DNA of 64,000 bases from contig JANWUW010000088.1 in assembly GCA_025057935.1 (NCBI GenBank), positions 19,425 through 83,424 on the forward strand, in the 5' to 3' direction. The notes below the pieces were generated by a model that ran no database searches, was not told the DNA's origin, and was given only the letters and a program-made list of their open reading frames with translations. Below are positions 24,552 to 42,155 of the stretch, in pieces; the stretch's first letter is position 1, and every line of letters starts with the position of its first letter. Position numbers and translations under genes: made by a program. The stretch is from Thermoflexales bacterium (GTDB lineage Bacteria; Chloroflexota; Anaerolineae; J036; Brachytrichaceae).

Positions 24552-24569
24552 GCGGCGCTGAGTCATTGG

Positions 24570-25757: not shown

Positions 25758-25896
25758 GATCGCCGATTGTAGTGGGGGCTTAACAGGGCTTGTGCCCTGA
25801 GCGGCTGCGCATCGCGGACGCGGTCGGCTCGCTTCGAGAGACTTCACTGCTTTGGCGCACCCCTAAGCGGGCGCTTACCCTGCTGGCGTGCGTGCA

Positions 25897-25923
25897 TACT
25901 TAGTGTTAAAATTAAACTAAGTA
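25897..25923. promoter_or_regulatory. inverted repeat TACTTAGT-N11-ACTAAGTA in AT-rich aroC/rel divergent region
   Basis: Perfect 8-bp arms with spacer gttaaaattaa. The local AT richness contrasts strongly with the genome. Confidence 0.35.
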
Positions 25924-25958
25924 GCCTATGGCGCTACACGTTTGGATCAGCGCACGTG

Positions 25959-28340
25959 ATGGAAGAGCAGGCAGGGCGTACCTCTGTTAAGAGCCTGCAG
26001 GAATTGTTGCACCTTGTGCAGCAACGCTGCAGCAAGGAAGAGGATATTGCGCTGATCACACGCGCCTATCAGCTCGCTGAAGCCGCTCACCGCAACCAAA
26101 CCCGCGCCTCGGGCGAGCCATACATCACACACCCCCTCGCCGTTGCCGGCATTCTTGCGGAATACGGTCTGGATGCGCCCGCCATTGCTGCAGCCCTGCT
26201 CCACGATGTCGTCGAGGACACGACCGTCACACTCCCTGAAATCCGCAACCAGTTTGGCGAAAAGGTCGCTGAGCTGGTGGATGCGTTGACCAAGATCAGC
26301 CGCGCGGAGATCGCCAACGTTAAAGCGCCGCTCGCCGCCTCCGAAACGGAGGAGACCGAAAGCGCGCCTTACCGCACGCAGCGCGAGGCGGAGTCGTTGC
26401 GCAAGATGCTGTTGGGGCTGGCGAACGACTTGCGCGTGGTGCTGATCAAGCTTGCCGATCGCCTGCACAACATGCGCACGCTGGACACTATGCCGCCCGA
26501 GAAGCAGCGGCGCATCGCGCGTGAGACGTTAGACCTCTACGCTCCGCTGGCAAATCGCCTCGGCTTATGGAAGTGGAAGCAGGAGTTGGAAGAGCTTGGC
26601 TTCCGCTACGCCTACCCTGAGCAGTATGCCTACCTCAAGCAAATGCTCGCTGAGGGCGAGGCTGAGCGCGAGGCGCGCATCCAACGCTACATCGCGCAAC
26701 TCCGCGCGGCGCTTGCCGAGGAGGGCATCACGAACGTCGAGATCACTGGGCGCGCCAAGCACATCTACAGCATTTGGCGCAAGATGCAGCGCAAGAACTT
26801 GTCCTTCGACAAGATCCGCGACACCCACGCCATTCGCGTCATTGTCGAGGACGACGCTGTTGCGCCGCCAGCGAACGGCAACGCTGAGGGCGGAGACAAG
26901 CCGCCAACGCAGCCCAAGTCACACCCGGCGGTGCACTTATGCTATGTAGTGCTGGGCATCGTGCATCGCCTATGGCGCCAAATTCCCGGCGAGTTCAACG
27001 ACTACATTAGCCATCCCAAGGACAACCATTACCAGAGCATACACACGGCGGTCATCGACGAAGAGGGGCGCACGCTCGAGGTGCAAATTCGCACGCGCAC
27101 CATGCACCTCACCGCCGAGCATGGCGTAGCTGCCCACTGGCTCTACAAGGACGACAGCCGCTTCATCAGCAAAGAGTACCGCGAGTACATCGAGCGGTTG
27201 CGCGAGTCGTTGCGCACGCTGGGCAATGAGACGGAGAGCGCAGTGGACTTCGTGGAGGCAGTGCGCACCGACCATCTGCGCGAGACGGTTTTCTGCTTCA
27301 CGCCGAAGGGCAAGTTGATCGAGTTGCCGCTGGGGTCGACGGTGATCGACTTCGCCTATCGCATCCACACTGAGATCGGCGACCACTGCCGCGGGGCGAA
27401 AGTCAATGGGCGGATGGTGCCGCTGAACTACAAGCTGCAGAACGGCGATGTGGTTGAGATCATCACTCACCCCAGCGCGACGCCGCGCCGCGAGTGGGTT
27501 CACGACACAGCCTACGTGTTCACCAGCGCCGCGCGCCACAAGATTCGCCAATGGTTCCGTCGCCAAGACCGCGAGCAGAACATCCGCGCGGGGCGCGAGA
27601 TTGTTGAGCGCGAGCTGAAGCGCCTCGGCGTGGCGCACTGGATGAAGCTCGAAGACGTGTATCGCCTTTACGTGCGCCCCGAGGAAGAAAGCGACGGTCG
27701 CACTTTGGAGAACTTCCTCGAGCGCGTTGGGCTTGGGCACATCACGCAAAACAGCATTGCCTCGCGCATCATGGAGGAAGAGCGCCGTCGCGAGCGCCAG
27801 CGCCGCGAGCAGCAAGCTCAGCAAGAGGGGCAAACCCTCGCTGTTGAAGAGCTGCGCGTGCAGTCTCCGAAGCACAGCGCCGAGCGCAAAGGGCGTTTCA
27901 TCGTCAAGGGTGTGCCCGATTCTGTCTGTCGTGTGGCGAAGTGTTGCAACCCGCAGCCCAACGATGATGTGGTCGGCTACGTCACGCGCGGGCAAGGCGT
28001 CACTGTGCACAAGCGCGCCTGTCGCAACGTCGCTAACCTTGAGCCGGAGCGTCTTGTGGAAGTGGTCTTCGCCAGCGAGGAGGACGTGCGCAGCGCGTGC
28101 GCGGTTTCCGTGCGCGTGGTCGCGGCGGATCGCCCTGGCTTGGTTGCCGACATCGCAAGCGTGATCGCCAGCCACAAAGGCAACATCACCAATATCCACA
28201 CCCCGCAGCGCAACGCAAAGCGCGGCGACGTGCACGTCGAAGTGCGCGTTGAGCTGCCCCATCCCAAGTTCATCACCGACTTGCTCAACGCCTTGCGGCG
28301 CGTGCACAACGTGTTCGAGGTTGTGCGCCTTGCGACGTGA
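25959..28340 (+). CDS. rel: bifunctional (p)ppGpp synthetase/hydrolase (RelA/SpoT homolog)
   Basis: HD domain (HRNQTRASGEPYITHPLAVA..HDVVEDT), synthetase (GRAKHIYSIWRKM, YQSIHTAV), TGS and ACT regions. Confidence 0.92.
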   Translation: MEEQAGRTSVKSLQELLHLVQQRCSKEEDIALITRAYQLAEAAHRNQTRASGEPYITHPLAVAGILAEYGLDAPAIAAALLHDVVEDTTVTLPEIRNQFGEKVAELVDALTKISRAEIANVKAPLAASETEETESAPYRTQREAESLRKMLLGLANDLRVVLIKLADRLHNMRTLDTMPPEKQRRIARETLDLYAPLANRLGLWKWKQELEELGFRYAYPEQYAYLKQMLAEGEAEREARIQRYIAQLRAALAEEGITNVEITGRAKHIYSIWRKMQRKNLSFDKIRDTHAIRVIVEDDAVAPPANGNAEGGDKPPTQPKSHPAVHLCYVVLGIVHRLWRQIPGEFNDYISHPKDNHYQSIHTAVIDEEGRTLEVQIRTRTMHLTAEHGVAAHWLYKDDSRFISKEYREYIERLRESLRTLGNETESAVDFVEAVRTDHLRETVFCFTPKGKLIELPLGSTVIDFAYRIHTEIGDHCRGAKVNGRMVPLNYKLQNGDVVEIITHPSATPRREWVHDTAYVFTSAARHKIRQWFRRQDREQNIRAGREIVERELKRLGVAHWMKLEDVYRLYVRPEEESDGRTLENFLERVGLGHITQNSIASRIMEEERRRERQRREQQAQQEGQTLAVEELRVQSPKHSAERKGRFIVKGVPDSVCRVAKCCNPQPNDDVVGYVTRGQGVTVHKRACRNVANLEPERLVEVVFASEEDVRSACAVSVRVVAADRPGLVADIASVIASHKGNITNIHTPQRNAKRGDVHVEVRVELPHPKFITDLLNALRRVHNVFEVVRLAT

Positions 28341-28358
28341 AGCGGCGATAATCACTGC

Positions 28359-30161
28359 ATGGCAAAAGCACTGCCCAAGCGCAGCGATGTGCCGCGCGCG
28401 TTCACGTGGGACCTCGAGAGCCTTTACGCCACACCTGACGATTGGGAGCGCGCGTTTCAGCATCTAGAAGCGCAGCTCTCGTCGTTCGAGCAGTACGCCG
28501 GGCGGTTGACTGAATCCCCTCACACGCTGTTGGCATACCTGCAGCACTACGAAGCGCTGGCGCCAGAGTATGACAAGCTCTACAACTACGCCGAGCGCGC
28601 TTTTGATGTGGACACCACTAACCAAGAAGCCAGCGCGCGCGTCAGTCGTGCGCGCAGCATACATGCGCGCTTTGCTGCCGCCAACGCTTTCGTGCGTCCT
28701 GAGCTGCTGACGCTCGAGTCGGAGCGCTTTCGCGCGTTCGTTGAGCAAGTCTCAGAGCTTGCGCGCTATCAGCGCTTCTACGACGAAATACAACGCAGCA
28801 AGCCGCATGTCCGCTCCGCCGAGGTGGAAGCAGTGATGGCGCAAGCGGGCGAGGTGTTCGCTGCGCCTTACGGCATTTACACTGTGCTCGCGAACGCCGA
28901 TTTGAAGTTTGCCAAGGCGCGCACGCGCAGCGGTCGGCGTGTGCCTGTGGCACAGGGCAACATCGAAGCTTTGCTTAGCAGCCCCGATCGCGCCTTGCGC
29001 AAGAGCGCGTGGGAGCGCTACGCCGACGCCTACCTTGCCCACGCCAACACCTTCGCCGAGATCATGGCAGCCAAGGTGAAGGCGAGCGTGTTGCGCGCGC
29101 GCGTGCACCGCTTTAACAGTGTGCTCGAGGCGGCGCTGCATCCGAGCAACATTCCCACGGCGGTGTACCACAACGTGATTGACGCCTGCAACCGCCATAT
29201 CGGGTTGTGGCATCGCTACTGGGACGCGCGCCGGCGGGCGCTCAATTTGGACAAGATGGAGGTGTGCGACATCTTTGCGCCGCTTGCGAAGCCGCCGCGT
29301 GTGCCATACGCGCAAGCCGTGCAGTGGATCGTCGAAGGGCTGCGCCCGCTTGGCGCGGATTACGTCGAGACAGTGCGCGCCGGGCTGACCAGCGAGCGAT
29401 GGGTGGACGTGTACCCCAATCTCGGCAAGCGCGACGGCGCCTACTCCTCCGGTGCATACGGCACAAAGCCGTTCATCTTCATGAACTACGACGACCACGG
29501 CTTGAGCGGCTTGAGCACGCTCGCGCACGAGATTGGTCACTCGATGCACACGCTGCTAAGCTGGCAAAACCAGCCCTACCTCTATGCCGAGTACACCATC
29601 TTCGCGGCGGAGGTAGCTTCCAACTGCAATCAAGCCTTAGTGCGCGCGCATCTGCTCTCGCTTCAGCGTGGGCGCGAGTTCGAGATCGCCGTAGTGCAGG
29701 AAGCAATAGACAACTTCCACCGCTACCTTTTCCTCATGCCGATCTTGGCGCAGTTTGAGCACTGGATGCACACCACCGTCGAGCAAGGCGGGGCGCTTAC
29801 GGCTGACGCCATGAGCGAGAAAATGGTGGAGCTGTTCCGACGCGGTTACGGCGACGCCGTGAGGCTCGATGAGCCGCGCGTGGGTGTAACGTGGATGCAG
29901 TTCGTGCACTTCTTCACCGACTACTACGTGTGGCAATACGCATCGGGCATCAGCGCAGCGAACGCGATTGCCGACATGATCCTCAGCGGAACGCCTGAGG
30001 CAGCTGAGCGCTACCTCACCTTCCTGAAGTCCGGCGGCGCGCTCGACCCGCTAGATGCGTTGCGCCTTGCTGGAGTGGACATGACGCAGCCCGAGCCGCT
30101 GGAGCGCGCTTTCGGTGTGCTTGAGCGCTTCATTGCTCGTTTCGAGCAGCTCACCGCGTAG
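28359..30161 (+). CDS. pepF: oligoendopeptidase F (M3B)
   Basis: HEIGHSMH zinc motif, 600 aa, typical PepF N-terminus (WDLESLY). Confidence 0.85.
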   Translation: MAKALPKRSDVPRAFTWDLESLYATPDDWERAFQHLEAQLSSFEQYAGRLTESPHTLLAYLQHYEALAPEYDKLYNYAERAFDVDTTNQEASARVSRARSIHARFAAANAFVRPELLTLESERFRAFVEQVSELARYQRFYDEIQRSKPHVRSAEVEAVMAQAGEVFAAPYGIYTVLANADLKFAKARTRSGRRVPVAQGNIEALLSSPDRALRKSAWERYADAYLAHANTFAEIMAAKVKASVLRARVHRFNSVLEAALHPSNIPTAVYHNVIDACNRHIGLWHRYWDARRRALNLDKMEVCDIFAPLAKPPRVPYAQAVQWIVEGLRPLGADYVETVRAGLTSERWVDVYPNLGKRDGAYSSGAYGTKPFIFMNYDDHGLSGLSTLAHEIGHSMHTLLSWQNQPYLYAEYTIFAAEVASNCNQALVRAHLLSLQRGREFEIAVVQEAIDNFHRYLFLMPILAQFEHWMHTTVEQGGALTADAMSEKMVELFRRGYGDAVRLDEPRVGVTWMQFVHFFTDYYVWQYASGISAANAIADMILSGTPEAAERYLTFLKSGGALDPLDALRLAGVDMTQPEPLERAFGVLERFIARFEQLTA

Positions 30162-31080
30162 CTTTGTTGGCGCTGGTGCGGTCTAGCCCTTGGTCTTCCC
30201 AGGCGCAAGCTTCGTCTAACGGTTCGAGGTGTGTGAACACGGTCGCGTTGGGCACTGCAGCGCGCAGGTCGGCTTCGATGCGCTCCAGCAGTGCGTGCCC
30301 CTCGCGCACGCTCCAGTGCCCCGGCACGAGCACGTGCACTGAGATGAAACAGCGGCGCGCAGCTTGACGTGTGCGCAGCGCGTGATACGAGATGCCTTGC
30401 TGTGCGTATCCGTCGAGCACACGGCGCACTGCGTTCAGTTTCTCTGGCGGCAGCGCAGCGTCGAGCAGACCATTCGCCGAGCGGTAGATCAGGCGCGCGC
30501 CAACCCAGGCGATGTGCGCGGCAACGCCGAGCGCGACAACGGGGTCAAGCCACAGCCAGCCCAACCACGCTGCCGCCCCAACGCCCACTAGCACCGCCAG
30601 CGAAGTCCAAACATCAGTGAGCAAGTGCTGTCCTTCTGCCTCGAGGGCGATGGCGTGAGCGCGCCGACCTACTTGAATGAGCACGATGCCTGCTCCTGCG
30701 TTGAGCAAGGTTGCTGCGCCAACCAGCCCCAGACCAAGGTCAATCTGCAGCATGGGCTGCGGCGCGAAGAAGCGCGGCACTGCTGCCGTCCCGATGCCAA
30801 CCGCAGCGACGAGGATCAGACCGCCCACCAGCGCGCTAGCGAAGTACTCCGCTTTGGTGTGACCATAGGCATGTTCCTCGTCAGGAGGGCGCGCTGCCCA
30901 ACTGAAGAACGTGAGCGTGATCAGCCCGCTCACGACGTTCACCAACGACTCCAGCGCGTCGGAGAGGAAACCCACCGAGCCAGTGATGCGCCAAGCTAGC
31001 GCCTTCAGCGCCACCGTCGCTAACGCGACAAGCGCTGGCAGATACGCCAGCCGTTGCAGCCAGGGCATGATGTGGGGCAA
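30151..31080 (-). CDS. cation diffusion facilitator family transporter
   Basis: Six TM spans, SDALESLVNV and HLLTDVWTS motifs, cytoplasmic C-terminal domain. Confidence 0.85.
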   Translation of the reverse strand: MPHIMPWLQRLAYLPALVALATVALKALAWRITGSVGFLSDALESLVNVVSGLITLTFFSWAARPPDEEHAYGHTKAEYFASALVGGLILVAAVGIGTAAVPRFFAPQPMLQIDLGLGLVGAATLLNAGAGIVLIQVGRRAHAIALEAEGQHLLTDVWTSLAVLVGVGAAAWLGWLWLDPVVALGVAAHIAWVGARLIYRSANGLLDAALPPEKLNAVRRVLDGYAQQGISYHALRTRQAARRCFISVHVLVPGHWSVREGHALLERIEADLRAAVPNATVFTHLEPLDEACAWEDQGLDRTSANKATR

Positions 31081-31143
31081 TCGTAAACCAGCACTGGCAT
31101 GCGCTGCGGGGAACTTTCAGAGAATCGGGCACGTCGTAAGAGC

Positions 31144-32436
31144 ATGATGCGAAGACACTCACTCCACCTCGTTGTTCAAATTGCAGCGATTGTCCTAATG
31201 ACAAGTTGCGCGCTGCCCCCGCCGACACTTCAACCTACACTATCGCCAAACACCTCCCCTCGCTCGGTTGAGTACGCGCCGCTGCCCACGCCTGCTGAGC
31301 CTGTGCGCCTGCAGCACAGTGAGGGGCATCTTGCGTTTGGGATAAACCTTCTCCGTCAACTTGCGGCGCAGAAGCCGAACGAGAACGTGTTCATCTCGCC
31401 GCCGAACATTGCGTTGGCGCTGGGGATGGCAGCCAACGGTGCCGGTGGCGAAACGCTCGCCGAGATGCTGCGCGTGCTCGGCGGCGAAGCCGCCACGCTC
31501 GATCAGCTCAACGCCGACTACCTCGCGCTGAGGTCGCTGCTCTCCCGCGACCAAGCCGGGCTTTTGCTTGACTCAGCAGCTTCGGTCTGGCTGCGCCGAG
31601 GGTTCACGCCGAAGTCCAGCTACCTTGAGCGCGTGCAGCAAGTGTTCGGCGCGCGCGCTGAGGCCTTGGACTTTAACGACCCTGCTGCCCTCGGGGCGAT
31701 CAACCGCTGGGTGAGCGAGCGCACACGCGGGCGCATTCCGCAAGTTGTGGACCAGGTGCCTGCGGAAGTGGTCATGCTGCTCGTGGCTGCGATTTACTTC
31801 AAGGGCGATTGGCAAACGCCGTTTGACGAGAAAGCGACACAAGATCAGCCCTTCACGCTCGCAAGCGGTGCTCAAGTGCAAGTGCCGCTCATGTTCCAAA
31901 GCGGCAAATTCGCGCATGTGCGGGGCGAAGGTTTTCAGGCGGTGCGCTTGCCCTACGTGGGCGGCGACATGTGGATGACTGTGCTTGTGCCCGACGAGGG
32001 GCGCGCGCTCAGCGAGCTGATCAACGCGCTAGACGCTGCGCAGTGGCAGAGCTGGTCGCAGCAATTCGTGCGGCGCGAAGGCGACGTGTTTTTGCCGCGC
32101 TTCCGCCTACGCTATCGAGCGGGCCTGAACGAGGCGCTCGTTGCGCTCGGCATCGAACGCGCTTTTGCGCCCGAGCGCGCCGACTTCCGCAACATGGCGG
32201 ATGAGCCGTTGTTCATTAACGCCGTGCGGCATGAGGCGTTCCTTGAAGTCAACGAACAAGGCAGCGAAGCGGCGGCCGCGACGACCGTTGAGATGGGCAT
32301 CACGGCGTTCATGCCCGAAACAGAGCGCTTTGTGCTGCGCGCGGATCGCCCCTTCCTCGTTGTAATTGAGGACAGGCGCGTGAATGTGCCGTTGTTCCTT
32401 GGCGCTGTTTTCGATCCGACGCGAGAGTCGATCTGA
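31144..32436 (+). CDS. serpin, probable lipoprotein/secreted
   Basis: Signal/lipobox-like VLMTSC. Serpin body (FISPPNIALALGMAANGA, NRWVSERT, IYFKGDWQ), inhibitory-type hinge EQGSEAAAATT, C-terminal RADRPFLVVIED. Confidence 0.85.
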   Translation: MMRRHSLHLVVQIAAIVLMTSCALPPPTLQPTLSPNTSPRSVEYAPLPTPAEPVRLQHSEGHLAFGINLLRQLAAQKPNENVFISPPNIALALGMAANGAGGETLAEMLRVLGGEAATLDQLNADYLALRSLLSRDQAGLLLDSAASVWLRRGFTPKSSYLERVQQVFGARAEALDFNDPAALGAINRWVSERTRGRIPQVVDQVPAEVVMLLVAAIYFKGDWQTPFDEKATQDQPFTLASGAQVQVPLMFQSGKFAHVRGEGFQAVRLPYVGGDMWMTVLVPDEGRALSELINALDAAQWQSWSQQFVRREGDVFLPRFRLRYRAGLNEALVALGIERAFAPERADFRNMADEPLFINAVRHEAFLEVNEQGSEAAAATTVEMGITAFMPETERFVLRADRPFLVVIEDRRVNVPLFLGAVFDPTRESI

Positions 32437-32480
32437 AGCTCAGACCTGTGTTAGGACAAAGCCAAGAACGGAAGGCGGTC

Positions 32481-32505
32481 AGGGCGCGGTTCAAACCCGT
32501 GCCCT
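32481..32505. terminator. hairpin between convergent serpin and CHAT-STAND genes
   Basis: AGGGCGCGG-TTCAAAC-CCGTGCCCT (9 bp including one G-T). No clear U tract on either strand. Confidence 0.3.
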
Positions 32506-32570
32506 CTTCGCGCCTACGCTTTGCAGTGCAAGCGCTGAATCCTTCGTGAGCGAGGCACTGGCGCTGCTCC

Positions 32571-34930
32571 TTAAGCGCAGACTCGCTGGTAGCGTTGCTG
32601 GAGTTCCGCCAGGCGGTCGAGATGCTCTAGGGCATGTTCAGCGGCGAGCGTGCGGGCTTCTGCCAAACCCTCAGCGAGGGCAGCGCAGCCGTCCTGCGTA
32701 GGATAGTGCTCTAGGACGCGCACCAGCATGCTGAGGCTCAGGATCAGGCGGGGCAGGAACGCCCGCGGGTTGTCCCGAGCAAGCTGGCGGCGGATGCTCA
32801 CGGACTCCAGCGCTGCCTTCAGCGCCGCCTCGCGCTGCCCGACCTCGGACAGCCTCGCGCCGAGGTTGTGGAGGCTTGCAGCCAAATCGGGCAGGAACGC
32901 CTGCGGGTTTGCTTGGGCAAGCTGGCGGTAGAGGCTCACTGCCTCCTGCGTCGCCTGCAGCGCCGCCTCGCGCTGCCCGACCGCACCGAGGGCACAGCCA
33001 AGCATCCAAAGCGCCTCTGCCCGCTCTTTCTCTTGGCTCGCAAGCGCAGCCCACACTCGATACACCTCCACCTCGAACGCCCGTAGCCGCAGCGTTCGGT
33101 CAGGCGCAGGCAACGCTCGATGAAGCGACCGCACTAGCTCAAGCATGCCTGCCTCGGGCAACGATCGCCACTCCGCCAACATCGCTCGTAGATTCCCCTC
33201 CTGCGCCTCGAGCTGCGTCACTGCTCGCCGATCCTCCGACGAGAGCCGCGCCGCCCACGCGCGCCACGTCGGCAGTAACTCTGCCCAGCGCTTCCGCCGC
33301 ATATCCTCACTCAGCGGAAAGTGCCCGCGGGCATATTCGCTCACTGTGGCGTGCCAGCGCCACGCCTGAATCTCAGGGTCAAAGTCCGCCAGCGCCGCTT
33401 CGCGCAGCGCCTGCACTCCCTCGTGCGTAGCCGCACGCTGCAGCAGCATCTCTGGCGCGATGTTCGCAGGGAACAACAGCAGCGCCTGCCACGCACCTCG
33501 ATGCCGCTTTCCCAGCCGCTTGGCGCTCCAGGCGTAGATCCTCTCCAACTGCGCCTGGAAGTCGCCCTGGCGCGCCCGCACTTGCTCCAGCACTGCGCGC
33601 AGGTCGCGCCGCCCAGCATGCACAACCAGCAGCTCGACCAGCCGCGGATGACCATCGCTCGCAACGGCAATCTCCTGAGCTTCGCTCGTCTCCAGCGGGA
33701 TGTTCCTCTGCCTAGCCAGATACAGCGCCTGGTATGTCGCAGCTTGAGTGCCCACTCCCTGATGGACGAGCAGGGGCGCGGCCGCAGGCACTTTCTCGAG
33801 CAGTAGCGATAAGCGCGACACGATGATCGCCGCGCTCCCTCCGCCGAGCTGCCTCAGGAACTGCTGCACCTGCGCCAGCTCGCCCTCGGGCAAGGCGTGC
33901 GCGTTGTCCAACACGAACAGAGTGGGCTGCAGCCGTGCGTAGGCAACCAGCTCGGCGCTCACCGCCTTGGGCGCAAAGCTCTGCGGCTGCACCTGCAGCC
34001 CCTCAGCAAGTTGGTTGAACAGATCAGCCGCCGTGCTGGGAGCATCGTCGGGGCAAGCCGCGTATGCAACCCCGCCCGGGAAACGCCATGCATTGCGATT
34101 CGCTGCCTCTAGCGCTAAGCTGGTCTTGCCGATAGCGGGTGCGCCTGAAAGGACGACCACGCAGGGCGGCTGCGCCAGTCGCTGCGCCAGCCTGACCAGC
34201 TCCCGCCCGCGACCGAAGAAGAACTTGGATCGCGCAGGCAGGTTGCCGCGCGGCTGACGCTCGTCTATCCACGGCTCGCTGCGAGTGAGGTGCTCGAAGC
34301 GAAGCGCATCATCGCCCAGCAACACCACCTCGTGCGTGGTGACTGCCCGTTGAGCGCGGCTGACTGCCTCCCGCAGCGGGTAACCGTCCGTCAGCTCGGC
34401 GTAGAGGCGAGCCGCGAAGCGCACCGCCTCGGGGTCGAGGACAGTCTGGGTGTGCCCAACCACGGCGCGCTGCTTTCTGCTTGACCAGCGCCTGCGCCAC
34501 CGAGTGGGTGTCGGCAGCGCTCTCGCAGCCGTTGAGCACAACCAAATCCAGCGGACGAGGCAAGCTTCCCAGGGCAGCGATGATTTCGTCCGTGGTGGCT
34601 TTGTGCGCCTGCCCGAACTCGTCTTCGAGCAGCAGCCCTCCCTTCCAAGCGTGACCGCTGAAGTGCAGCACGTGGGGGAAGAGCTGCTGGGTCTCAGCGC
34701 GAGGAGAGAGGGCGAAGTTTGTCTAGGGTAGGGGGCTGCAGGCGGGTGAGGTAGAGAGGGATTTGGCTCTCGCGTGCGGCTTGGCAGAGCTCGTGCCACT
34801 CCCAGTGCAGGTCGAGCGGCGTTGGAGGGGTGTCTGGGTGTTCGGGGTCGTGGACAGGCGCGGCGAGGAGCGCCAAGATGCGCAGCCTGTTGGCGAGGTC
34901 AGAGCTTGATTGCCGGGGCGCGCCTGACAT
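32571..34930 (-). pseudogene. CHAT (caspase-like) protease - STAND/NB-ARC NTPase - TPR protein, interrupted by two +1 frameshifts
   Basis: The protein continues across three track ORFs: 35047-34694 (from M at 34930), 34671-34309 and 34799-32571. CHAT dyad: HFSGHA (His 34651-34653) and LNGCES (Cys 34525-34527). Walker A GAPAIGKTS (34122-34145), Walker B LFVLDNAH, C-terminal TPR repeats. Frame breaks near 34712 and near 34466. Confidence 0.75.
32751..32982 (-). repeat. 138-nt-period TPR-coding DNA repeats (two ~94-nt cores, ~84% identical)
   Basis: 32751-32844 versus 32889-32982. The terminal 25 nt cagcgccgcctcgcgctgcccgacc are identical. They encode 46-aa GQREAAL... repeats. Confidence 0.7.
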
Positions 34931-35331
34931 CGGTGCGAGCCTTGCACGGGGGAGTATATTGCCTTGCGGCGCTTTCGCACGCTCGGTGTTCGCTGGCGTG
35001 ATCATGCTCCTAGCGCTTGCCGGCATCCAATCGCGTGCAATGTACACACTGCCGCGGCTCAGTGTTCAACCTTCTTGCCGTGGGTTGGCACAGCGCAGAA
35101 GCGCTAGATAGGGTCATAGCGAGCGCCAAACTTCTCCAGGTGAGCAGCAATCTCCATCAAAGGCGGGAGGATCATGCGCTCAGCAGTGCCTCTCTGATTT
35201 CGGCTGCCTTTGCGAGCAACAGTCTCGTTGTCGGAGAGGGCGTGCATCAAATCAGCGTGTGCCATGTGCTTTGAAGCGCTCTTCAGCCTCCCTTAACAGG
35301 CGCGCTCAGGTGCTACAACAATCAGGCGCGC

Positions 35332-36168
35332 ATGGAAGTTTCTGGCGTTGCCGCGCGTTGGCTAGTGTTAGTAGCGTTGGCGATGCTGGCGAGCGCGCCG
35401 ACCTGTGCGCTGCTCATGGCACGGCGCGAGGCGTCGCGTGCGCTGCATCGGGCAACACATGCCGAGCACGCGCATTGGGTCAACGCAGCGGTTGGTCTGT
35501 CTCTGCTTGCCTTTGTGCTTGATGTGCTTGTGCATGGGCGCTGGGTGTGGCTAGTGGCGCGTCTAGCGCTGCTGATCGGCGTGTGGGCGAGTTTGTCTAG
35601 GCAACGAACTGCTCTGGGGGCATTGCTGGTCGCAGCGCTGTTGCTCACTCAGAGCTTCCAAGGAAATGCGCCGCAGCAGAGGGAGTGGCTGGCTGCCGTG
35701 GTCGCAGATTGGTTGCATCTGGTCAGCGCTGCTGTTTGGCTAGGCGGTGTGGGCTACTTGGCGCTCGTGATCTTGCCTGCAGCACTCCGCGATCAGTCGC
35801 GGCTTGCGGGGCTTGCCGAGGCAGTGAGCGCGTTTTCCTCGCTTGCTGTGGCTGCGGTGCTGGTTGCTGCGCTCACGGGCATCGCCCAAAGCGCAGCTTT
35901 GGTCGGCAGCTTTGCGGCGTTGATCGGCACGACATACGGTCAGGCGCTGCTTGTCAAACTAGGCAGCTCGGCGGTGCTGCTCGCCTTAGGGGCGTTCCAT
36001 CACTTCGTCGTCAGCCCGCAGCTCAACCTGTGGCGGTTGCGCGCTGCTCACGCTGCGGAGGCTGCGCGGCGATTTCGCGTCAGCCTCGCCGTAGAGAGCG
36101 CGTTTGCTGCGTTCACGCTCGTGGCTGCGGCGGCGATGACCATATTGCCCGCGCCCGGGCTTGGGTGA
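35332..36168 (+). CDS. CopD-family membrane protein
   Basis: 278 aa with 6-8 TM spans. ADWLHLVSAAVWLGGVGYLALV resembles the CopD signature. Confidence 0.6.
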   Translation: MEVSGVAARWLVLVALAMLASAPTCALLMARREASRALHRATHAEHAHWVNAAVGLSLLAFVLDVLVHGRWVWLVARLALLIGVWASLSRQRTALGALLVAALLLTQSFQGNAPQQREWLAAVVADWLHLVSAAVWLGGVGYLALVILPAALRDQSRLAGLAEAVSAFSSLAVAAVLVAALTGIAQSAALVGSFAALIGTTYGQALLVKLGSSAVLLALGAFHHFVVSPQLNLWRLRAAHAAEAARRFRVSLAVESAFAAFTLVAAAAMTILPAPGLG

Positions 36169-36258
36169 GCTGGGAACAACGTCATTCCTGCACAATGCGA
36201 TGAGCGCAACGCGTGAGTTGGGCTACACTGCTGCTTCACCTGCGCCCATTTGTGAGCC

Positions 36259-36975
36259 ATGACCGACGCCGACCTCATCGCTGCGCAGCGCGCGCTGATC
36301 GCGCCGCTGCTCACGACAGCGCCGCAAGACGCCGTCGCGCATTACTTCGCGCTTGAGCACGACGCTGCGCGCACGCGCTTGACGCTTGTCTATCGAGCGC
36401 CGGGCTTTCCTTCCGCGTTCGTCGCAGTGTGCCAAACAGGCATGGATCTGTTCCGCCCCATGGTGGTGTTTCGCGGCGAAGAGGAAGCGGTGGTCGAGGC
36501 GCTGCGCCGCGCGCTGCAGCGCCCGCGCGCTTACTTGTTCAGCGCTCTACCCGAGCAGCGCGCAGCTTTGAGGCGCGTCGCACAGGTGAGCAGCGATCAA
36601 CCGAATGCAATTTACGCGCTCGACGCTGACGACTTCCGCCCCGTGGTCAACGTCTTGGTGCAAACCTCGCGCACGCCAGATGGGCTGTTCCGCGCTTCCA
36701 TCCGCAGCCGTGACGGCAGCCTTGTTGCTGAAGCAGGCGTGTCGTGGATGTCTTCGCGATATGCGGAGGTCTTCGTGCGCGTCGCGGAGGCGTTCCGAGG
36801 GCGCGGCTTGGGCAAATCGGTGGTCAGCGCGGTGAGCGCTCATGTGCTGGAGGCTGGGCGCACGCCGCTCTACCTCACCTCGCCCAACAACCTCGCCTCA
36901 GTGCGCCTCGCGGAACGGCTCGGCTACCACGACACGAGTCAGTTGGAGTGGAGCGGCGTATGCACAGTGCTGTGA
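36259..36975 (+). CDS. GNAT family N-acetyltransferase
   Basis: C-terminal acetyl-CoA motif FRGRGLGKSVVSAVSAHVLEAGRTPLYLTSPNNLASVRLAERLGY. Confidence 0.7.
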   Translation: MTDADLIAAQRALIAPLLTTAPQDAVAHYFALEHDAARTRLTLVYRAPGFPSAFVAVCQTGMDLFRPMVVFRGEEEAVVEALRRALQRPRAYLFSALPEQRAALRRVAQVSSDQPNAIYALDADDFRPVVNVLVQTSRTPDGLFRASIRSRDGSLVAEAGVSWMSSRYAEVFVRVAEAFRGRGLGKSVVSAVSAHVLEAGRTPLYLTSPNNLASVRLAERLGYHDTSQLEWSGVCTVL

Positions 36976-36986
36976 GGGCAACGCGC

Positions 36987-37823
36987 TCATCGCTTCTGCC
37001 CGACGACGAGCATGCCCCCGCCAACGTCGTGCGGCTCTTCCTCGTAAAACGGGCGCAAGCGCGGCAGCCAGTAACGGTGCACGAGGCGCGCCATGAGCGG
37101 CTGATGACCCAGCATCCGCAGGCGCGGTGAGGCGAGCGCGTTGAACAACGAGCGCCGACCGATGCCAATGGCGCGATTCATGCGATCCCATTGCTGCACG
37201 GCGCGCGGCGCCACGTAGTAGTGGATCAGCGTCAGGCGTATTCCCACGCCGGCAAGCAACACACGCCACTCGTCGGCGGTGTAGTAGTGGTGGTGCGCGA
37301 GGAGCTGATCCACATGTCGCGCGTAGGCTTCCGCAGCCTGCCGGTTCGGCGCGCGCTGCACGCCATCGAGCAAGCGCCGGAAGTGATCGCTTGGCACAGT
37401 GACCACCAGCAGGCCGTCTTGGCGCAGCACGCGTGCCAGCTCCGGCAGCACATTCGCCGGGTCGGGGATGTGTTCAATCACTGAGTTGGCGTACACCGTG
37501 CCAAAAGCGCTGTCGCAATATGGCAGGTGATGCCCATCAGCGAACAGCACGCCATGCTCGTAGACACCGCTGTCACGTGCCGTGGGTAGCATGCGCGTGT
37601 CAATATCGCAGCCGAATACGCCAGGTTGTCGCCCGAAGATCGCGGCGGTGAACAAGCCATCGCCGCAGCCGAAGTCGAGCATGGGCGCTGGAAAGGCGTC
37701 CAAACGACTCAGCGCGCGCGCTTCGATGGCTCGCCACAGCGCAACTGGCGGCGCGAACCAGTAGCGGCGGAGAAAGTCATCGAGGAAGTCTTTGTCGCGA
37801 TGCACGCGCAGCGTGTGATCCAT
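36987..37823 (-). CDS. class I SAM-dependent methyltransferase
   Basis: Motif I LDFGCGDGLF. Post-I and II motifs (GCDID, VYANSVIEHI). Confidence 0.8.
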   Translation of the reverse strand: MDHTLRVHRDKDFLDDFLRRYWFAPPVALWRAIEARALSRLDAFPAPMLDFGCGDGLFTAAIFGRQPGVFGCDIDTRMLPTARDSGVYEHGVLFADGHHLPYCDSAFGTVYANSVIEHIPDPANVLPELARVLRQDGLLVVTVPSDHFRRLLDGVQRAPNRQAAEAYARHVDQLLAHHHYYTADEWRVLLAGVGIRLTLIHYYVAPRAVQQWDRMNRAIGIGRRSLFNALASPRLRMLGHQPLMARLVHRYWLPRLRPFYEEEPHDVGGGMLVVGQKR

Positions 37824-37929
37824 CGCGGCGATTGTATGCTGTGGGCGCGTTGGGCTTTGCAGGGGGCATGACGCGATGCGCCTTCAGCGCTCTCGGCGCT
37901 GTGCTCCAAGAGGCAATGTCGAGGCGTGC

Positions 37930-38181
37930 TTACCGTTGCGGCTGCACGCGATAGGGGACAACCACGCTGCCGCGCCCGCGGGAGGATTGTTGCTCGTGGT
38001 TGAGCAACACCTCATCAGAAAGCGCCGATCGTGTGCGCTGTCGACGCGCCTCACGTCGGCAGCGCTCGCTGCAATACACCACGCGCTCCCAATCGCGCGC
38101 CCAGCGCTTGCGCCACTCGAAAGGGCGCCCGCAGACTGGACAAATCTTGCTGGGTAGCTGCCCCTTCTTCATTCGAGCCAT
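37930..38181 (-). CDS. DUF2256 zinc-ribbon protein
   Basis: [32 protein letters not shown]. The alternative start at 38172 would give an ATGA overlap with the upstream stop. Confidence 0.75.
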
Positions 38182-40082
38182 TGTGTGGAGCGTACGTCGA
38201 AGCGCAGCGTGCGCGCGCCGTCGCTCAGCCGCAACACAGCGCCCTCAGCGCCCACAATGCGCAAGGTGCGCGTGCCTTCGGGCGCATCCACAGTGAACCA
38301 CGCTCCGAGCAAAGCCTCGACAACGAGCACGCCACCGCGGATCTCTTCGTCCACGCCGCCCAGCGCTGGGTCGCGCACGCGCCCCGCGAACACCAAGCGC
38401 GTCTGCACGCGATCGCCGAGGCGCACGCTGCCATGCCACACGTTCTCCGCTAGGAAGCGCGAGGCAGGCGCCGGCGGGGCGATGCCCTCGATGATCACCC
38501 CATCCCCTGCAGGTGTTGCGTCGAGCACTGCAGCGACGCCCTCGACGCGTGCTGTGTCGTATGGTGTGAAGCTGCTTCCCAGCGGTTGCGTGATCACGCG
38601 CCAGGTGATGTCGCTAGGGAAGGGCAACGGCATCGCAGTGCGAGGATCGGCGTTGAGCGCTGCCTGTAACTGTTCCCACCCTTGGCGCGGCGTGTTGTCA
38701 GTGCCAACGCAGCCGCCTACATCCTGGCACGCTTGCCATTGTGTGAGCAGCCCGATGAAGTCGAGTTTGGCGCCCTTCTGCGTGGCTGCGTACAAGCTCA
38801 TGCGATACCACTGGTCGGCGTTGACGCCGCTGCGCAGGTAAATTTCAGGGAAAGGAAGCGCGACGCCGCTGTTCACCTGCCAAACTTGCTCTACTGTCCA
38901 GCCGTTGTTTGGCTGGCGGTTGGGCGAGCCTGTTGTGGGGCATCCATCGCAAGTGCCGAAGTTGATGAAGGGCAAGCTCGTCGCTGTAGCGTAGCCCTGC
39001 ACCCAAGCCAAAGTGGTGATCGGTCCGTTCCAGCTCATCTCAATGTCGTTAGCGCCTAGCACGCGGATGCGCGCAGCCGCGTCTTGAGGCGCTGCCGTGC
39101 TCAGCCACGTGTGGAGCTGATTGATCATCTGCCCCCATGCCCGACCATGCTCGAAGCCCGTTGCGCCGCGGTAGTTATTCGTGCCCACGCCTAAGGTGAG
39201 GCTTGCGAACGACGGCGCGCATGTCCAGTAGCCGCGCAGGAAGCCCTTCACCGCTTCGGCGATTGTTGCCGTTGAGGCGAATGTAAAACCGCTGCGGTAG
39301 TAAAGCACGCCGTACTGTCCGTTTTGCGCCCAAGGTTGCCCGAAGGCTAGGATGATCACTCCCTGCTCGCGCGCTTGCCCAGCCGCGCAGCCCATGTACT
39401 CGTGATGCTGCGGGTTGATGGTCGAGATATAGCGCGAGGTGGTGTACGCAAAAGGAGCGCCGCTCACGAACGGCAGAAAGACGTGCTGCGTGAGAGGCGA
39501 CGTGCCTTCAATGCCGATCGGCACGAAAGCTAGCGCATCGAAGCCCACGCGCCGCGTGCCAGCTTGCTCGCCTGTCACGTCGTCGAGCTGCACGAAATTC
39601 AGCTCGCCAGGTTGAAAGTAGTGCTGCCCAAGACTCACCCACTCCGCGTAGTAACGGTTTTGGCTTACAACGCGCGTGGTGGTGATCGGCGCTGCTGCGC
39701 TGCCGCGCACGATGTGGTAGCGCGCGCTCCGCGTCGTCGCGTTGTAACGCGGGATGAACGCGAAGACCTCGTAGGTCAGAGGCAGCATTGCTGAGAGCGG
39801 CAAATGCCAGCGGGCGAAATTAGTGAGCGTGACCGCTTCGTTCCAAGTCCACACCATGCTGCCGCCGTAGTAGCTGAAGGAGGTGCCTGTGCTTGTCCAC
39901 CAATACTGCGGGGGACCGAAGCGCACAAAGTGGCTGTCGGTGTCGTCCACTACGATCGCGTGCGGTGGCAGATGGCTGACCTGCGCTGCGGCAGATGTTG
40001 TGCCGACGAGCAAGGCGAGCGCCATGCCAAACGCAGCGAGCGCTGCAGTCGAAAGGTGCACACGTTTCCAGAGGCGCAGCAT
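38169..40082 (-). CDS. secreted protein, N-terminal golvesin-C-like carbohydrate-binding-type domain, remainder unknown
   Basis: Track ORF (899 aa) trimmed to [34 protein letters not shown] (signal peptide, ATG 40082). The Arg-rich N-terminal extension overlaps the TauE gene. Confidence 0.65.
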
Positions 40083-40141
40083 CGTTAGCGTTGAGTATTT
40101 TGTCACGCGCTTTCGCGTGCTGCGTGGTGCAAGACAATTCC

Positions 40142-40930
40142 TCACATGAGGCTGCGCACAAGGGTATGCGCGCTGAGCGCGACGATCAACGCGCCAACGA
40201 GAACCAGCAGCAGGCGCACGGGCAAGCGCCGCGTGAGCCACGCGCCGAGCGGCGCAGCAGGGATGCCGCCGAGCGCTAAGCCGACCACGGCGTAAGCGTT
40301 TGCTGAACCAAGCGCGGCGAGAAATGCGAGTGTCGTCGCCAAAGTGACGAAAAACTCGGCGGCGTTCACTGTGCCAATGGCGAGGCGCGCCTCTTTGCCG
40401 CGCCAGATCAGGCTCGAGGCAACGATCGGTCCCCAGCCGCCGCCGCCAATAGCGTCGAGAAATGCGCCAATGAATCCAAGGGCACCAACGCGCTCGACCA
40501 CGCGCGGTGGCGGGATGGGACGAAACGCTTTGCCGATGATGATAGCGCCCATGACCAAGAGGTAAGCCGCGACATACGGGCGCAGCCACGTGTTCGGCAG
40601 GGACGCAGCGGCAATCGCTCCGAGCACCGCGCCGAGGATAGCAGCGGGCACAAGACGGCGGAACAAATGCCCATCCACGTTCCCGAAAGCGCGATGTGAC
40701 ACCGCTGAGGCGCCGGTAGTGAAGCACTCTGCAGCGTGCACTGTGGCGCTGGCAATGGCTGGTGGCGTGCCCAACGCGACCAGCAGCGATGATGCGGTGA
40801 CGCCGTATGCCATGCCTAGGGCGCCATCCACCAACTGCGCCGCAAACCCCACGACAAGGTAGAGCCAAAACTCTGGCGGCACACTCCCCATCGCTCGGCG
40901 CAAAAGCTCGAAGAGTTCAGCGGGGAACAC
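40142..40930 (-). CDS. TauE/SafE (TSUP) family anion exporter
   Basis: 262 aa with 7-8 TM spans. VVGFAAQLVDGALGMAYGV and GGGWGPIV motifs. Confidence 0.8.
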   Translation of the reverse strand: MFPAELFELLRRAMGSVPPEFWLYLVVGFAAQLVDGALGMAYGVTASSLLVALGTPPAIASATVHAAECFTTGASAVSHRAFGNVDGHLFRRLVPAAILGAVLGAIAAASLPNTWLRPYVAAYLLVMGAIIIGKAFRPIPPPRVVERVGALGFIGAFLDAIGGGGWGPIVASSLIWRGKEARLAIGTVNAAEFFVTLATTLAFLAALGSANAYAVVGLALGGIPAAPLGAWLTRRLPVRLLLVLVGALIVALSAHTLVRSLM

Positions 40931-40998
40931 AGGGCTGCGATTGTAGCCTCTGCCCCCGCCGAGGTAGAAGGCACTAGCTGTGATATACCTTCGCAGCT

Positions 40999-42051
40999 AT
41001 GCAAGTCTTCTTCTCGCGTCGCACGTTCCTTAGGCTCGCTGGCGCTGCACCGTTGATCCTCATCGTGCCTGCGCGCAAAGCTCAATCACAAGCGAGTGAA
41101 CCTGTTGCGCAGCCCACGCGCCGCCCATTTGGTCGTGCCATCGTCGGCGGCTTGAAGATACGAGAGCTGCCCTCGACCAAGGCACCGGTTGTGCGCCAAC
41201 TTCGACGCAACGAGGTCATCCCTCTGCTTGGGCAAGCTGAGAGCAACGAGAGTCCCGCGAAACACAACTTGATTTGGTACAAGACGAGCGATGGCTGGGT
41301 GCATTCCGCACAAATCCAGCCTTGTGAGGACAGGCTCAACACGCCGATCACGCACGTCGCTAAAGATGTTGTGGTCTGGGGCGAGGTGACTGTGCCGCTG
41401 ACCTATGCCCGCGTGCAGCCGGACCCAAAAGCGCGCGCGCCTTGGACGCACTACTTTGGCACTATCTTCCAAGTGATGGAGGTGCGCGAGGGCGCCGATC
41501 AAGAGCTCTGGTATCGCATCAGCGATGGCATCTTGAGCACGCTGTGGGTGCACGCAAAACACTTGCGCATCCTCCCGCCAGAGGCGTTTGCGCCGCTTTC
41601 ACCCGACGTGCCCCCAGAAGCGAAGCGGCTCGAGGTTGACCTCAAGGCGCAACGCGTGTATGCCTACGAAGGCGAACGCAAGGTGTTCGAGGCGCGCTGC
41701 TCCACGGGCGCTAGCTTTCGGCAGCCTGATGGGACGTGGAGGAGCTTCCACACTACACGCGGCGATCATCGCATCTACGTGAAGACGCCCTCGCAGCGCA
41801 TGTTCGATGAGCCACGCACCTACGATCTTCCGGGCATTCCTTGGGTGGCGTACTTCACCTCAAGCGGCATCGCCTTCCACGGCACGTACTGGCACAACGA
41901 CTACGGCAAGCCACGCAGCCATGGATGTGTGAATTTGCTGCCAGAGGACGCCCAGTGGGTTTACCGCTGGTCGCTCCCTGTGGCGCCACCTGAGCAACGT
42001 TGGACACGCCTGCGCGACCGCAAGCAGGGCACACTAGTGCGCGTCTTCTAA
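40999..42051 (+). CDS. L,D-transpeptidase (YkuD) with Tat-type signal and SH3-like domain
   Basis: SRRTFLRLAGAA twin-arginine signal. Catalytic HGTYWHNDYGKPRSHGCVNL. Confidence 0.85.
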   Translation: MQVFFSRRTFLRLAGAAPLILIVPARKAQSQASEPVAQPTRRPFGRAIVGGLKIRELPSTKAPVVRQLRRNEVIPLLGQAESNESPAKHNLIWYKTSDGWVHSAQIQPCEDRLNTPITHVAKDVVVWGEVTVPLTYARVQPDPKARAPWTHYFGTIFQVMEVREGADQELWYRISDGILSTLWVHAKHLRILPPEAFAPLSPDVPPEAKRLEVDLKAQRVYAYEGERKVFEARCSTGASFRQPDGTWRSFHTTRGDHRIYVKTPSQRMFDEPRTYDLPGIPWVAYFTSSGIAFHGTYWHNDYGKPRSHGCVNLLPEDAQWVYRWSLPVAPPEQRWTRLRDRKQGTLVRVF

Positions 42052-42155
42052 CACTTCCTGAGTTCGCAAGGTAAAGCTTTCGCGCAAACTCCAATGAGCA
42101 AGCGGCAAGTGCTGTGCTGCGCCCGTCGAATCCAGAACCGCAGCTTGGCTTACGC

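What the first reader, a model, noticed from the sequence alone, without database searches (positions are those of the whole stretch)
32571..34930. CHAT-STAND-TPR (caspase-like effector + NTPase sensor) gene broken by two +1 frameshifts
Seen: one continuous protein can be read only by joining three frames:
- LRILALLAAPV...TLDKLR (35047-frame, from M at 34930)
- ALSPRAETQQLFPHVLHFSGHAWKGG...LNGCESAADTHSVAQALVKQKA (34671-frame)
- AVVGHTQTVLDPEAVRFAARLYAEL... through Walker A GAPAIGKTS, LFVLDNAH and TPR repeats (34799-frame)
The breaks lie near 34712 and near 34466, and each needs a +1 shift. The CHAT His/Cys dyad is intact.
Established: STAND NTPases with N-terminal effector and C-terminal repeat sensor are a recurrent antiviral/programmed-death architecture (Avs/NLR-like). 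CHAT is a clan-CD caspase-like protease.
Inference: this is either a decaying defence gene (possibly counter-selected for toxicity) or two single-base sequencing errors in GC-rich runs.
Basis: partly seen in the sequence, partly recalled or inferred. Interest (0 to 1): 0.6.

Follow-up and report, generated by a model that had tools for sequence, protein, structure and literature searches.

The report
Dead caspase-like NLR-type defence gene
A bacterial "alarm" gene that fuses a caspase-like protease to an ATP switch and a repeat sensor is truly broken by two small deletions in this hot-spring bacterium and is still collecting further breaks, so it is an ordinary, recently dead gene and not a sequencing error.

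Summary
On the minus strand (about 34930 to 32571), one CHAT–STAND NTPase–TPR protein can be read only by joining three frames. The joints lie at 34714-34711 and 34467-34464. All 14 intact homologues I aligned (50-67% identity, Chloroflexota and Methanothrix) read straight through both joints as one ORF. The three parts are therefore not normally separate genes.

The breaks are not assembly errors. Contigs from eight runs of four independent hot-spring studies (2014-2023, up to 508x) carry both breaks with no indel, and so does a second MAG. A relative with 86-93% identity at the same locus still has the "GC" that is missing at joint 2. That break is thus the loss of one GC unit from GCGCGCGC. 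Joint 1 lacks 5 nt.

Two further 1-nt deletions are polymorphic: 33632 in one run's main strain and 34568 in a minority of another. They are the only small indels across 19 kb in four runs.

Verdict: a real, recent pseudogene that is still decaying, belonging to a known "all-in-one" bacterial NLR-like architecture. No PADLOC model matches, and no partner gene or serpin linkage is conserved. Interest is low.

The parts
34712..34930 (-). Segment A (codon starts = 1 mod 3). It holds the N-terminal part of the CHAT domain, LRILALLAAPV...TLDKLR. The possible start is ATG 34930; an alternative is GTG 35047. The frame then runs on into a stop at 34696-34694. This copy lacks the ~50-aa N-terminal leader found in most homologues.
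34711..34714 (-). Joint 1. Frame A codon CGC overlaps frame B codon GCC by 2 nt. The window lacks 5 nt relative to LRxALSPRA, which is present in all 14 homologues. The break is fixed in every run that covers it.
34465..34713 (-). Segment B (codon starts = 0 mod 3). It is the catalytic core of the CHAT domain, with His (34653-34651, HFSGH) and Cys (34527-34525, NGCES).
   Evidence: (CHAT 21.4 bits on the fragment)
34568..34568 (-). Polymorphic extra frameshift: 1 nt lost from a GGG run in a minority contig arm of run X7 (11-18x beside about 50x without it).
34464..34467 (-). Joint 2. One GC unit is lost from GCGCGCGC, giving AAR|VVGH instead of AARAVVGH. A relative in run X11 carries the GC and reads through in frame.
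32571..34466 (-). Segment C (codon starts = 2 mod 3). It holds the end of the CHAT domain (to about 34296), the STAND NTPase (Walker A 34145-34119, Walker B 33923-33897, GHP motif 33656-33627), a helical linker, TPR units (about 33017-32706) and the stop at 32573-32571. NCBI annotates only this part, from GTG 34463, as a 630-aa 'ATP-binding protein'.
33632..33632 (-). Extra frameshift in the main strain of run X3: 1 nt lost inside the conserved DGHPRLVELL motif (7306-nt contig, 19.5x). It is absent from X2, X4, X6 and X7.

Best explanation
This is a recently inactivated gene that is still decaying. It belongs to the 'all-in-one' bacterial NLR-like family, with an N-terminal CHAT (caspase-like, His/Cys) protease, a central Apaf-1/NB-ARC-like STAND NTPase and a C-terminal TPR sensor.

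What the intact protein does is inferred from the family, not shown here. The TPR arm would bind a trigger. The NTPase would then exchange nucleotide and oligomerise, and the crowded CHAT domains would become active and cleave cellular targets. The outcome would be abortive infection or programmed death, in filamentous organisms.

In this hot-spring Anaerolineae population the gene was broken by a 5-nt deletion (34714-34711) and by loss of one GC unit (34467-34464). The first separates the N-terminal strands of the protease from its catalytic core. The second separates that core from the rest of the protein. Both breaks are fixed. Later 1-nt deletions (33632, 34568) segregate in subpopulations, as expected for a sequence no longer under selection. 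No full-length protein can be made by ordinary translation.
For: Three-frame homology. All 14 aligned homologues read through both joints as one ORF.

Both breaks are present with zero indels in Logan contigs of X1, X2 (508x), X3, X4, X5, X6, X7 and X8, which come from 4 studies between 2014 and 2023. They are also present in MAG GCA_033581275.1, which is 99.82% identical with 17 SNPs and 0 gaps over 9430 nt.

The X11 relative at the same locus (86-93% identity) has 'GC' inserted behind 34464, which restores AARAVVGH.

The extra 1-nt deletions at 33632 (X3) and 34568 (X7 minority) are the only small indels over 24000-43000 in four runs. The chance that both fall in a gene covering 12.6% of the stretch is about 0.016.

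Against X11, 21 of 40 substitutions are in third codon positions and 21 are synonymous (p = 0.0096). This indicates selection until recently. The coding GC pattern is intact in each frame.

The window copy departs most often from positions that are otherwise invariant, 13 of 178 (7.3%) against 1.2-5.8% for the homologues.

Family identity: Pfam CHAT scores 50.9-60.5 bits in intact homologues, and AAA_16 and TPR_10 pass their cut-offs in the window. An AlphaFold model of homologue P0026 (pLDDT 89.8) matches the SAVED-CHAT filament 8tl0 (rmsd 3.7-3.8 A over about 220 columns), and also PH0952, Avs3, Apaf-1, CED-4 and plant resistosomes.
Against: Only contigs were available, not raw reads, so rare in-frame alleles cannot be excluded. 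Joint 1 was not covered in the X11 relative, so its ancestral state is inferred from homologues at 50-67% identity only. SNP density inside the gene is not raised (1 of 17 SNPs against L001; 2 of about 40 in X3), so relaxed selection shows in indels only. The excess of violated conserved positions is mild. No RNA run was found, so lack of expression is not shown. The defence or death function of the intact family is inferred; no member of this clade has been tested and PADLOC has no model for it.
Confidence: 0.9

Rival explanations
1. The frameshifts are sequencing or assembly errors and the gene is intact in the organism.
For: The region is GC-rich and joint 2 lies in a short GC repeat. The window comes from a metagenome-assembled genome.
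Against: Eight runs from four independent studies, one at 508x, give contigs identical to the window across both joints. A second MAG has 0 gaps over 9.4 kb. Joint 1 is a 5-nt loss, not a homopolymer miscount. The same pipeline recovers a GC-containing allele in a relative, so it can see the difference.
Confidence: 0.02
2. Programmed recoding: ribosomes make two +1 shifts and produce the full protein. This is comparable to the frameshift-joined CHAT-TIR/NB-ARC genes noted earlier in this scan for cyanobacteria.
For: Both joints have the local context CGC-C. Earlier notes report frameshift-coupled effector/sensor genes elsewhere.
Against: There is no slippery heptamer and no stop-adjacent shift site at either joint. 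Both joints lie inside the CHAT domain, not between modules. Reading across them leaves the protein 2 and 1 residues shorter than all homologues. Homologues and the X11 relative are unbroken. Further random frameshifts segregate in the population.
Confidence: 0.02
3. Contingency (phase-variable) locus: slippage at short G/C repeats switches a costly suicide gene off and on within the population.
For: Joint 2 is the loss of one GC unit from (GC)4, and 34568 is a contraction of a GGG run. Several frame states coexist.
Against: The repeats are very short, 3-4 units. Joint 1 is a 5-nt loss and 33632 is not in a repeat. Two independent reversions would be needed. No in-frame allele was seen in any of eight runs of this strain, although contigs hide rare variants.
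Confidence: 0.03
4. The remnant still has a function. The 630-aa STAND-TPR ORF, annotated as 'ATP-binding protein', would be expressed without its protease as a decoy, regulator or partner of another effector.
For: A 630/742-aa ORF stays open with intact Walker A/B and TPR. It is conserved at 99.8% between strains.
Against: The annotated GTG start sits exactly at the deletion, with no evident Shine-Dalgarno sequence. The main X3 strain carries a frameshift inside this ORF, in the conserved GHP motif. No homologue with this truncated form appeared among 117 hits other than this strain's own cluster. No partner gene is conserved nearby.
Confidence: 0.05

Closest known systems
'All-in-one' prokaryotic NLR-like proteins with an N-terminal CHAT/caspase-like effector, an NB-ARC-type STAND NTPase and TPR repeats, described in multicellular bacteria and filamentous archaea (Dyrka et al. 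2020, bioRxiv 10.1101/2020.01.06.895854; Kaur et al. 2020, PMC7159879; Kaur et al. 2021, PMC8195603)
   Same: The domain order is the same: CHAT, then STAND, then TPR. The taxa are the same: Chloroflexota and Methanothrix. It is a single polypeptide with no conserved partner gene.
   Different: The window copy is dead, with two fixed frameshifts. It also lacks the ~50-aa N-terminal leader of most clade members. No member of this particular clade has been tested experimentally, as far as my searches show.
[quoted passage not shown]
   Same: The STAND module of homologue P0026 matches Apaf-1 and CED-4 by fold (E 5e-9 to 1e-6) and by profile. The logic is the same: a sensor-driven oligomer activates a caspase-type protease. 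In the bacterial forms the protease is fused directly.
   Different: The sensor is TPR, not a WD40 beta-propeller. The protease is of CHAT type. Sequence identity is only 13-17%.
Avs (AVAST) antiviral STAND proteins, e.g. Avs3 bound to phage terminase (8dgc)
   Same: An effector-STAND-TPR-like sensor in one chain. The fold match to Avs3 has E 1.2e-9.
   Different: No PADLOC Avs/AVAST model matches at E <= 0.01. The effector is a protease, not a nuclease. The phage trigger is unknown.
SAVED-CHAT (8tl0) and TPR-CHAT/Csx29 of Craspase: CRISPR-linked CHAT proteases
   Same: The protease domain is the closest solved relative: phmmer E 3.8e-7 with H and C aligned, and fold rmsd 3.7-3.8 A at 27% identity.
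   Different: Those proteases are switched on by cyclic oligoadenylate via SAVED, or by an RNA-guided complex. They are not switched on by a fused STAND NTPase.
A broken CHAT-STAND-TPR gene in another genome of this scan
   Same: The same kind of case: a caspase-linked STAND sensor inactivated by small deletions.
   Different: It is in a different clade (nSTAND1, with a membrane helix) and a different organism. I did not check it.

Membership tests
CHAT domain (Pfam PF12770; caspase-like clan CD peptidase) | Pfam score at or above the gathering cut-off of 24 bits | tested here: inconclusive
   The window's middle fragment alone scores 21.4 bits (E 1.9e-4), which is below the cut-off because the domain is split over three frames. 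Intact homologues at 53-59% identity score 50.9-60.5 bits.
CHAT domain (Pfam PF12770; caspase-like clan CD peptidase) | Catalytic His and Cys in the conserved motifs | tested here: met
   HFSGH (His 34653-34651) and LNGCES (Cys 34527-34525) are invariant in A1 and A2. They align with HFIGH and LNAC of 8tl0.
CHAT domain (Pfam PF12770; caspase-like clan CD peptidase) | Caspase-like alpha/beta fold | tested here: met
   This was tested on homologue P0026, not on the broken copy. The model has pLDDT 89.8 and matches the SAVED-CHAT filament 8tl0 with rmsd 3.7-3.8 A over about 220 columns, E 2e-7.
STAND NTPase (Apaf-1/NB-ARC-like) | Walker A, Walker B and the helical/winged-helix extension with a GxP-type motif | tested here: met
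   GAPAIGKTS, LFVLDNAH and DGHPRLVELL are present. AAA_16 scores 35.4 bits against a cut-off of 32.6, and AAA_22 scores 34.1 against 27. Profile hits go to PH0952, Apaf-1 and AfsR. Fold hits go to PH0952, Avs3, Apaf-1, CED-4 and plant NLRs.
Pfam nSTAND6 (PF25201) | Score at or above 27.7 bits | tested here: not met
   The score is 26.1 bits, just under the cut-off. P0049 scores 21.8.
TPR sensor | TPR repeat models above their cut-offs | tested here: met
   TPR_10 scores 29.2 bits against a cut-off of 27.5 in the window. Homologues have several TPR families above cut-off.
Avs/AVAST and other named defence systems (PADLOC-DB 2.0.0) | Match to a system's protein model | tested here: not met
   There is no relevant hit at E <= 0.01 for P0001, P0026 or P0022. 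The only hits are weak P-loop matches to Cas3fv and mad8.
Functional gene (as opposed to pseudogene) | One uninterrupted reading frame across all domains, as in relatives | tested here: not met
   Three frames are needed. Relatives have one ORF. The breaks were confirmed in independent runs.
Programmed ribosomal frameshift | A slippery site, and conservation of the shift in relatives | tested here: not met
   There is no heptamer and no stop-linked +1 site at either joint. Relatives are unshifted.
NLR with paired amyloid signalling motif (BASS; Dyrka et al. 2020) | The same short motif on the NLR N-terminus and on a neighbouring effector's C-terminus | tested here: not met
   A profile of the homologues' N-terminal leader hits once per locus, only on the CHAT protein itself. 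It has no hit in the window.
EACC1-type or other two-gene protease/effector modules | A conserved small partner gene next to the protease-STAND gene | tested here: not met
   No neighbour family is shared by more than 4 of 36 homologue loci. None of the window's neighbours recurs in those loci.

The most novel reading that the evidence does not exclude
The locus may not be simply dead. The population holds several frame states at short G/C repeats: one GC unit lost at joint 2, a GGG contraction at 34568, and the GC-containing allele in a relative. Slippage could then act as a stochastic on/off switch for a costly suicide-protease gene, or the repeated independent breaks could reflect selection for loss of an autoimmune gene. 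Contigs hide rare alleles, so in-frame revertants are not excluded.
Probability: 0.04. Interest if true: 0.55.

Novelty: new member of a known kind. Interest (0 to 1): 0.2.

Why it matters
The result is mainly a clean negative. An apparent recoding event or assembly problem turns out to be an ordinary recent pseudogene.

It has some modest value. It corrects the public annotation, where a 630-aa 'ATP-binding protein' and a 78-aa hypothetical protein are really pieces of one dead CHAT-STAND-TPR gene. It also gives a population-level snapshot of an NLR-like gene being lost in a natural hot-spring lineage: two fixed breaks and two segregating ones. Finally, it points to a well-populated, untested clade with more than 100 members in Chloroflexota and Methanothrix. 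That clade has no PADLOC model, and its intact members would be better subjects for experiments.

Tried and rejected
I could not look for paralogues or intact copies elsewhere in the window's own genome. tblastn found none within the 64-kb window.
- I looked for a close intact orthologue in genome contigs and metagenome contigs using the read-through protein. Nothing closer than 29% turned up. The profile scan gave only relatives at 68% identity or less.
- No RNA run was listed for the gene, so expression is untested.
- A weak tblastn hit (E 0.2-1) suggested a remnant of the homologues' N-terminal leader at 35167-35265. A profile of 47 leaders found nothing there, so I rejected it.
- I considered that the neighbouring serpin (31099-32436) might be a functional partner, an inhibitor of the caspase-like protease. 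No homologue locus has a serpin or any other of the window's neighbours, so I rejected it.
- I tested for a conserved small partner gene or a paired amyloid motif. Neither was found.
- I considered a programmed frameshift like the one in earlier notes. There is no slip site and relatives are unbroken, so I rejected it.
- I tried to cover joint 1 in the X11 relative. Only 34316-34575 and three other short pieces were assembled, and no further run of that lineage was found.

Full report
**Observation**

The minus strand between about 34930 and 32571 carries one protein-coding signal spread over three reading frames.
- Frame A reads ...LRILALLAAPVHDPEHPD...TLDKLR and then runs into a stop at 34696-34694.
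- Frame B reads ALSPRAETQQLFPHVLHFSGHAW...LNGCESAADTHSVAQALVKQKAAR.
- Frame C reads AVVGHTQTVLDPEAVRFAARLYAEL... through GAPAIGKTS, LFVLDNAH, DGHPRLVELL and the TPR units to the stop at 32573-32571.

tblastn with four intact homologues returns exactly these three frames: 34960/35026-34658, 34713-34450, and 34469-32577/32745. Each segment shows the genome's coding composition in its own frame (GC1 about 0.73, GC2 about 0.47, GC3 about 0.77, no stops), like the neighbouring genes.

**Where the breaks are**

I aligned the read-through protein with 14 homologues at 50-67% identity (A1). Every one is a single ORF across both joints.
- At joint 1 all homologues read LDxLRxALSPRA. In the window, codon CGC (34714-34712, frame A) overlaps GCC (34713-34711, frame B) by two bases. 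Five bases are therefore missing.
- At joint 2 all homologues read (L/K)ARA(A/V)VGH. In the window, CGC (34467-34465) overlaps GCC (34466-34464). Two bases are missing from a GCGCGCGC run.

Both joints lie inside the protease domain, not between modules.

**Real mutation or error?**

The stretch is held by hot-spring metagenome runs from several studies.
- Logan contigs of X1, X2 (depth 508), X5 and X8 are identical to the window over 34300-35100, with no indel.
- X3, X4, X6 and X7 also carry both breaks.
- These eight runs come from four studies dated 2014-2023.
- Short exact pieces also occur in X9.
- A second public MAG (GCA_033581275.1, locus L001) is 99.82% identical over 9430 nt, with 17 substitutions and no gap. 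There NCBI annotates only the last segment, as a 630-aa 'ATP-binding protein' (P0001), plus a 78-aa ORF.

One run from a further study, X11, holds short contigs of a relative at the same locus. They are 86-93% identical and include the upstream spacer. That relative has 'GC' inserted behind 34464, which restores ...AARAVVGH... in frame. So joint 2 is the loss of one GC unit in the window's lineage. Joint 1 was not covered in that relative.

**Ongoing decay**

The main strain of X3 (a 7306-nt contig at 19.5x) lacks one more base at 33632, inside the conserved DGHPRLVELL motif of the NTPase's helical domain. A minority contig arm of X7 (11-18x beside about 50x) lacks one base of a GGG run at 34568.

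As a control I laid four runs on 24000-43000. These two are the only small indels in 19 kb. The gene covers 12.6% of that stretch, so the chance that both fall in it is about 0.016.

Against the X11 relative, 21 of 40 listed substitutions are at third codon positions and 21 are synonymous (binomial p = 0.0096). The gene was therefore under purifying selection for most of that divergence, and the inactivation is recent. The window copy also departs most often from positions that are invariant in the others: 13 of 178 (7.3%) against 1.2-5.8%. This is only a mild excess. SNP density within the gene is not raised.

**What the gene was**

Pfam results on the window:
- AAA_16 scores 35.4 bits, AAA_22 34.1 and TPR_10 29.2, all above their cut-offs.
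- nSTAND6 scores 26.1, just below its cut-off.
- CHAT scores 21.4 on the isolated middle fragment, below the cut-off of 24.

Intact homologues score 50.9-60.5 bits for CHAT. The read-through protease segment matches the solved CHAT protease 8tl0 (E 3.8e-7), with HFSGH/HFIGH and LNGC/LNAC aligned.

An AlphaFold model of homologue P0026 (35-sequence alignment, pLDDT 89.8, pTM 0.86) gave these fold matches:
- the STAND proteins PH0952, Avs3, Apaf-1, CED-4, MalT and plant resistosomes (E 1e-9 to 1e-6);
- the activated SAVED-CHAT filament for the N-terminal domain (rmsd 3.7-3.8 A over about 220 columns, 27% identity).

PADLOC has no model for the family, and NCBIfam has none either. Relatives occur in many Chloroflexota MAGs (Anaerolineae, Chloroflexia, Thermoflexales, Ardenticatenales) and in Methanothrix, sometimes in several copies per genome. 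This fits the published picture of NLR-like proteins with CHAT effectors in filamentous or multicellular prokaryotes (10.1101/2020.01.06.895854; PMC7159879; PMC8195603; PMC13581612).

**Mechanism**

The following is inferred from the family, not shown here. In the intact protein the TPR arm binds a trigger. The STAND NTPase then exchanges nucleotide and oligomerises, and the clustered CHAT domains become active and cleave targets. The result is abortive infection or programmed death.

In this genome that cannot happen. Joint 1 cuts the first strands of the protease from its catalytic core, and joint 2 cuts the core from everything downstream.

**Rivals**

- Assembly error is essentially refuted.
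- Programmed +1 frameshifting is rejected. There is no slip site, the joints are inside a domain, reading across them leaves residues missing, relatives are unbroken, and further random frameshifts segregate.
- A phase-variable switch is unlikely. The repeats have only 3-4 units, joint 1 is a 5-nt loss, and two reversions would be needed. Rare alleles could not be checked without raw reads.
- A surviving function for the effector-less STAND-TPR ORF is weakened by the X3 frameshift inside it, and by its annotated start lying exactly at the deletion with no evident ribosome-binding site.

**Context**

The neighbours are PepF, a cation-efflux protein, a serpin (convergent), CopD, a GNAT acetyltransferase and a methyltransferase. 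They are ordinary genes, and none recurs beside the homologues. No partner gene is conserved next to the family: at most 4 of 36 loci share any neighbour.

**Limits**

- No RNA runs were found.
- Only contigs, not reads, were available.

**Verdict**

This is a genuine, recent pseudogene of a known architecture that is still eroding. Interest is low.

Noticed in passing
Homologues P0022, P0025, P0026 etc.; loci L005-L047 (N-terminus of the CHAT ORF); absent upstream of window 34930: Most homologues start with a conserved ~50-aa leader (consensus MSDDPRGSIQIGGDVSGSVLVTGSQNVIIQAEQVMLQAAEQARAQGRDPARM). It is rich in G, N, Q and V, and residues 1-29 are predicted disordered in the P0026 model (pLDDT < 50). 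It looks like a propeptide or an amyloid-type signalling motif. It occurs only once per locus, and the window copy lacks it.
   Followed up: partly
L009, L011, L013, L014, L016, L020, L027, L041 (Methanothrix/Methanotrichaceae MAGs): The same CHAT-STAND-TPR clade (48-60% identity to the window) is present in archaeal Methanothrix genomes as well as in Chloroflexota. This suggests transfer between filamentous partners of anaerobic communities. One Anaerolineae MAG (JALUTT01) has three copies.
   Followed up: no
window 34066-34115, 33328-33368, 32920-32970: In X3, X7 and X11, very deep contigs (up to 750-1500x) from other organisms match only these short conserved stretches at 80-90% identity. 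One runs on into a GPPGIGKTAL P-loop. Dominant members of the same hot-spring communities therefore carry their own homologues.
   Followed up: no
window 34413-34568 and 34711-34975: Run X9 is labelled 'gut metagenome', yet it holds exact low-depth pieces (2-3x) of this hot-spring organism's sequence. This is probably a labelling oddity or carry-over between libraries.
   Followed up: no
window 34463 (GTG) and 34930 (ATG); L001 3534-3770 and 4001-5893: The public annotation splits the dead gene into a 78-aa hypothetical protein and a 630-aa 'ATP-binding protein'. The start codon of the latter lies exactly at the 2-nt deletion. The catalytic middle piece is not annotated at all.
   Followed up: yes
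window 27314-27402: One X4 contig (30.5x) skips 87 nt here. The shorter side is only 22 nt and the sequence between the two sides is not known. It could be a deletion variant or an artefact.
   Followed up: no
L010 4435-5541, L028 315-1283, L033 4820-5206, L037 8777-9745: An ORF that looks like a tyrosine recombinase or integrase lies next to the CHAT-STAND-TPR gene in 4 of 36 homologue loci. This hints that some copies travel on mobile elements.
   Followed up: no
window 31099-32436: A serpin gene converges on the 3' end of the dead protease gene, with a 134-nt spacer. The pairing is not conserved in any homologue locus, so it is probably coincidence.
   Followed up: yes
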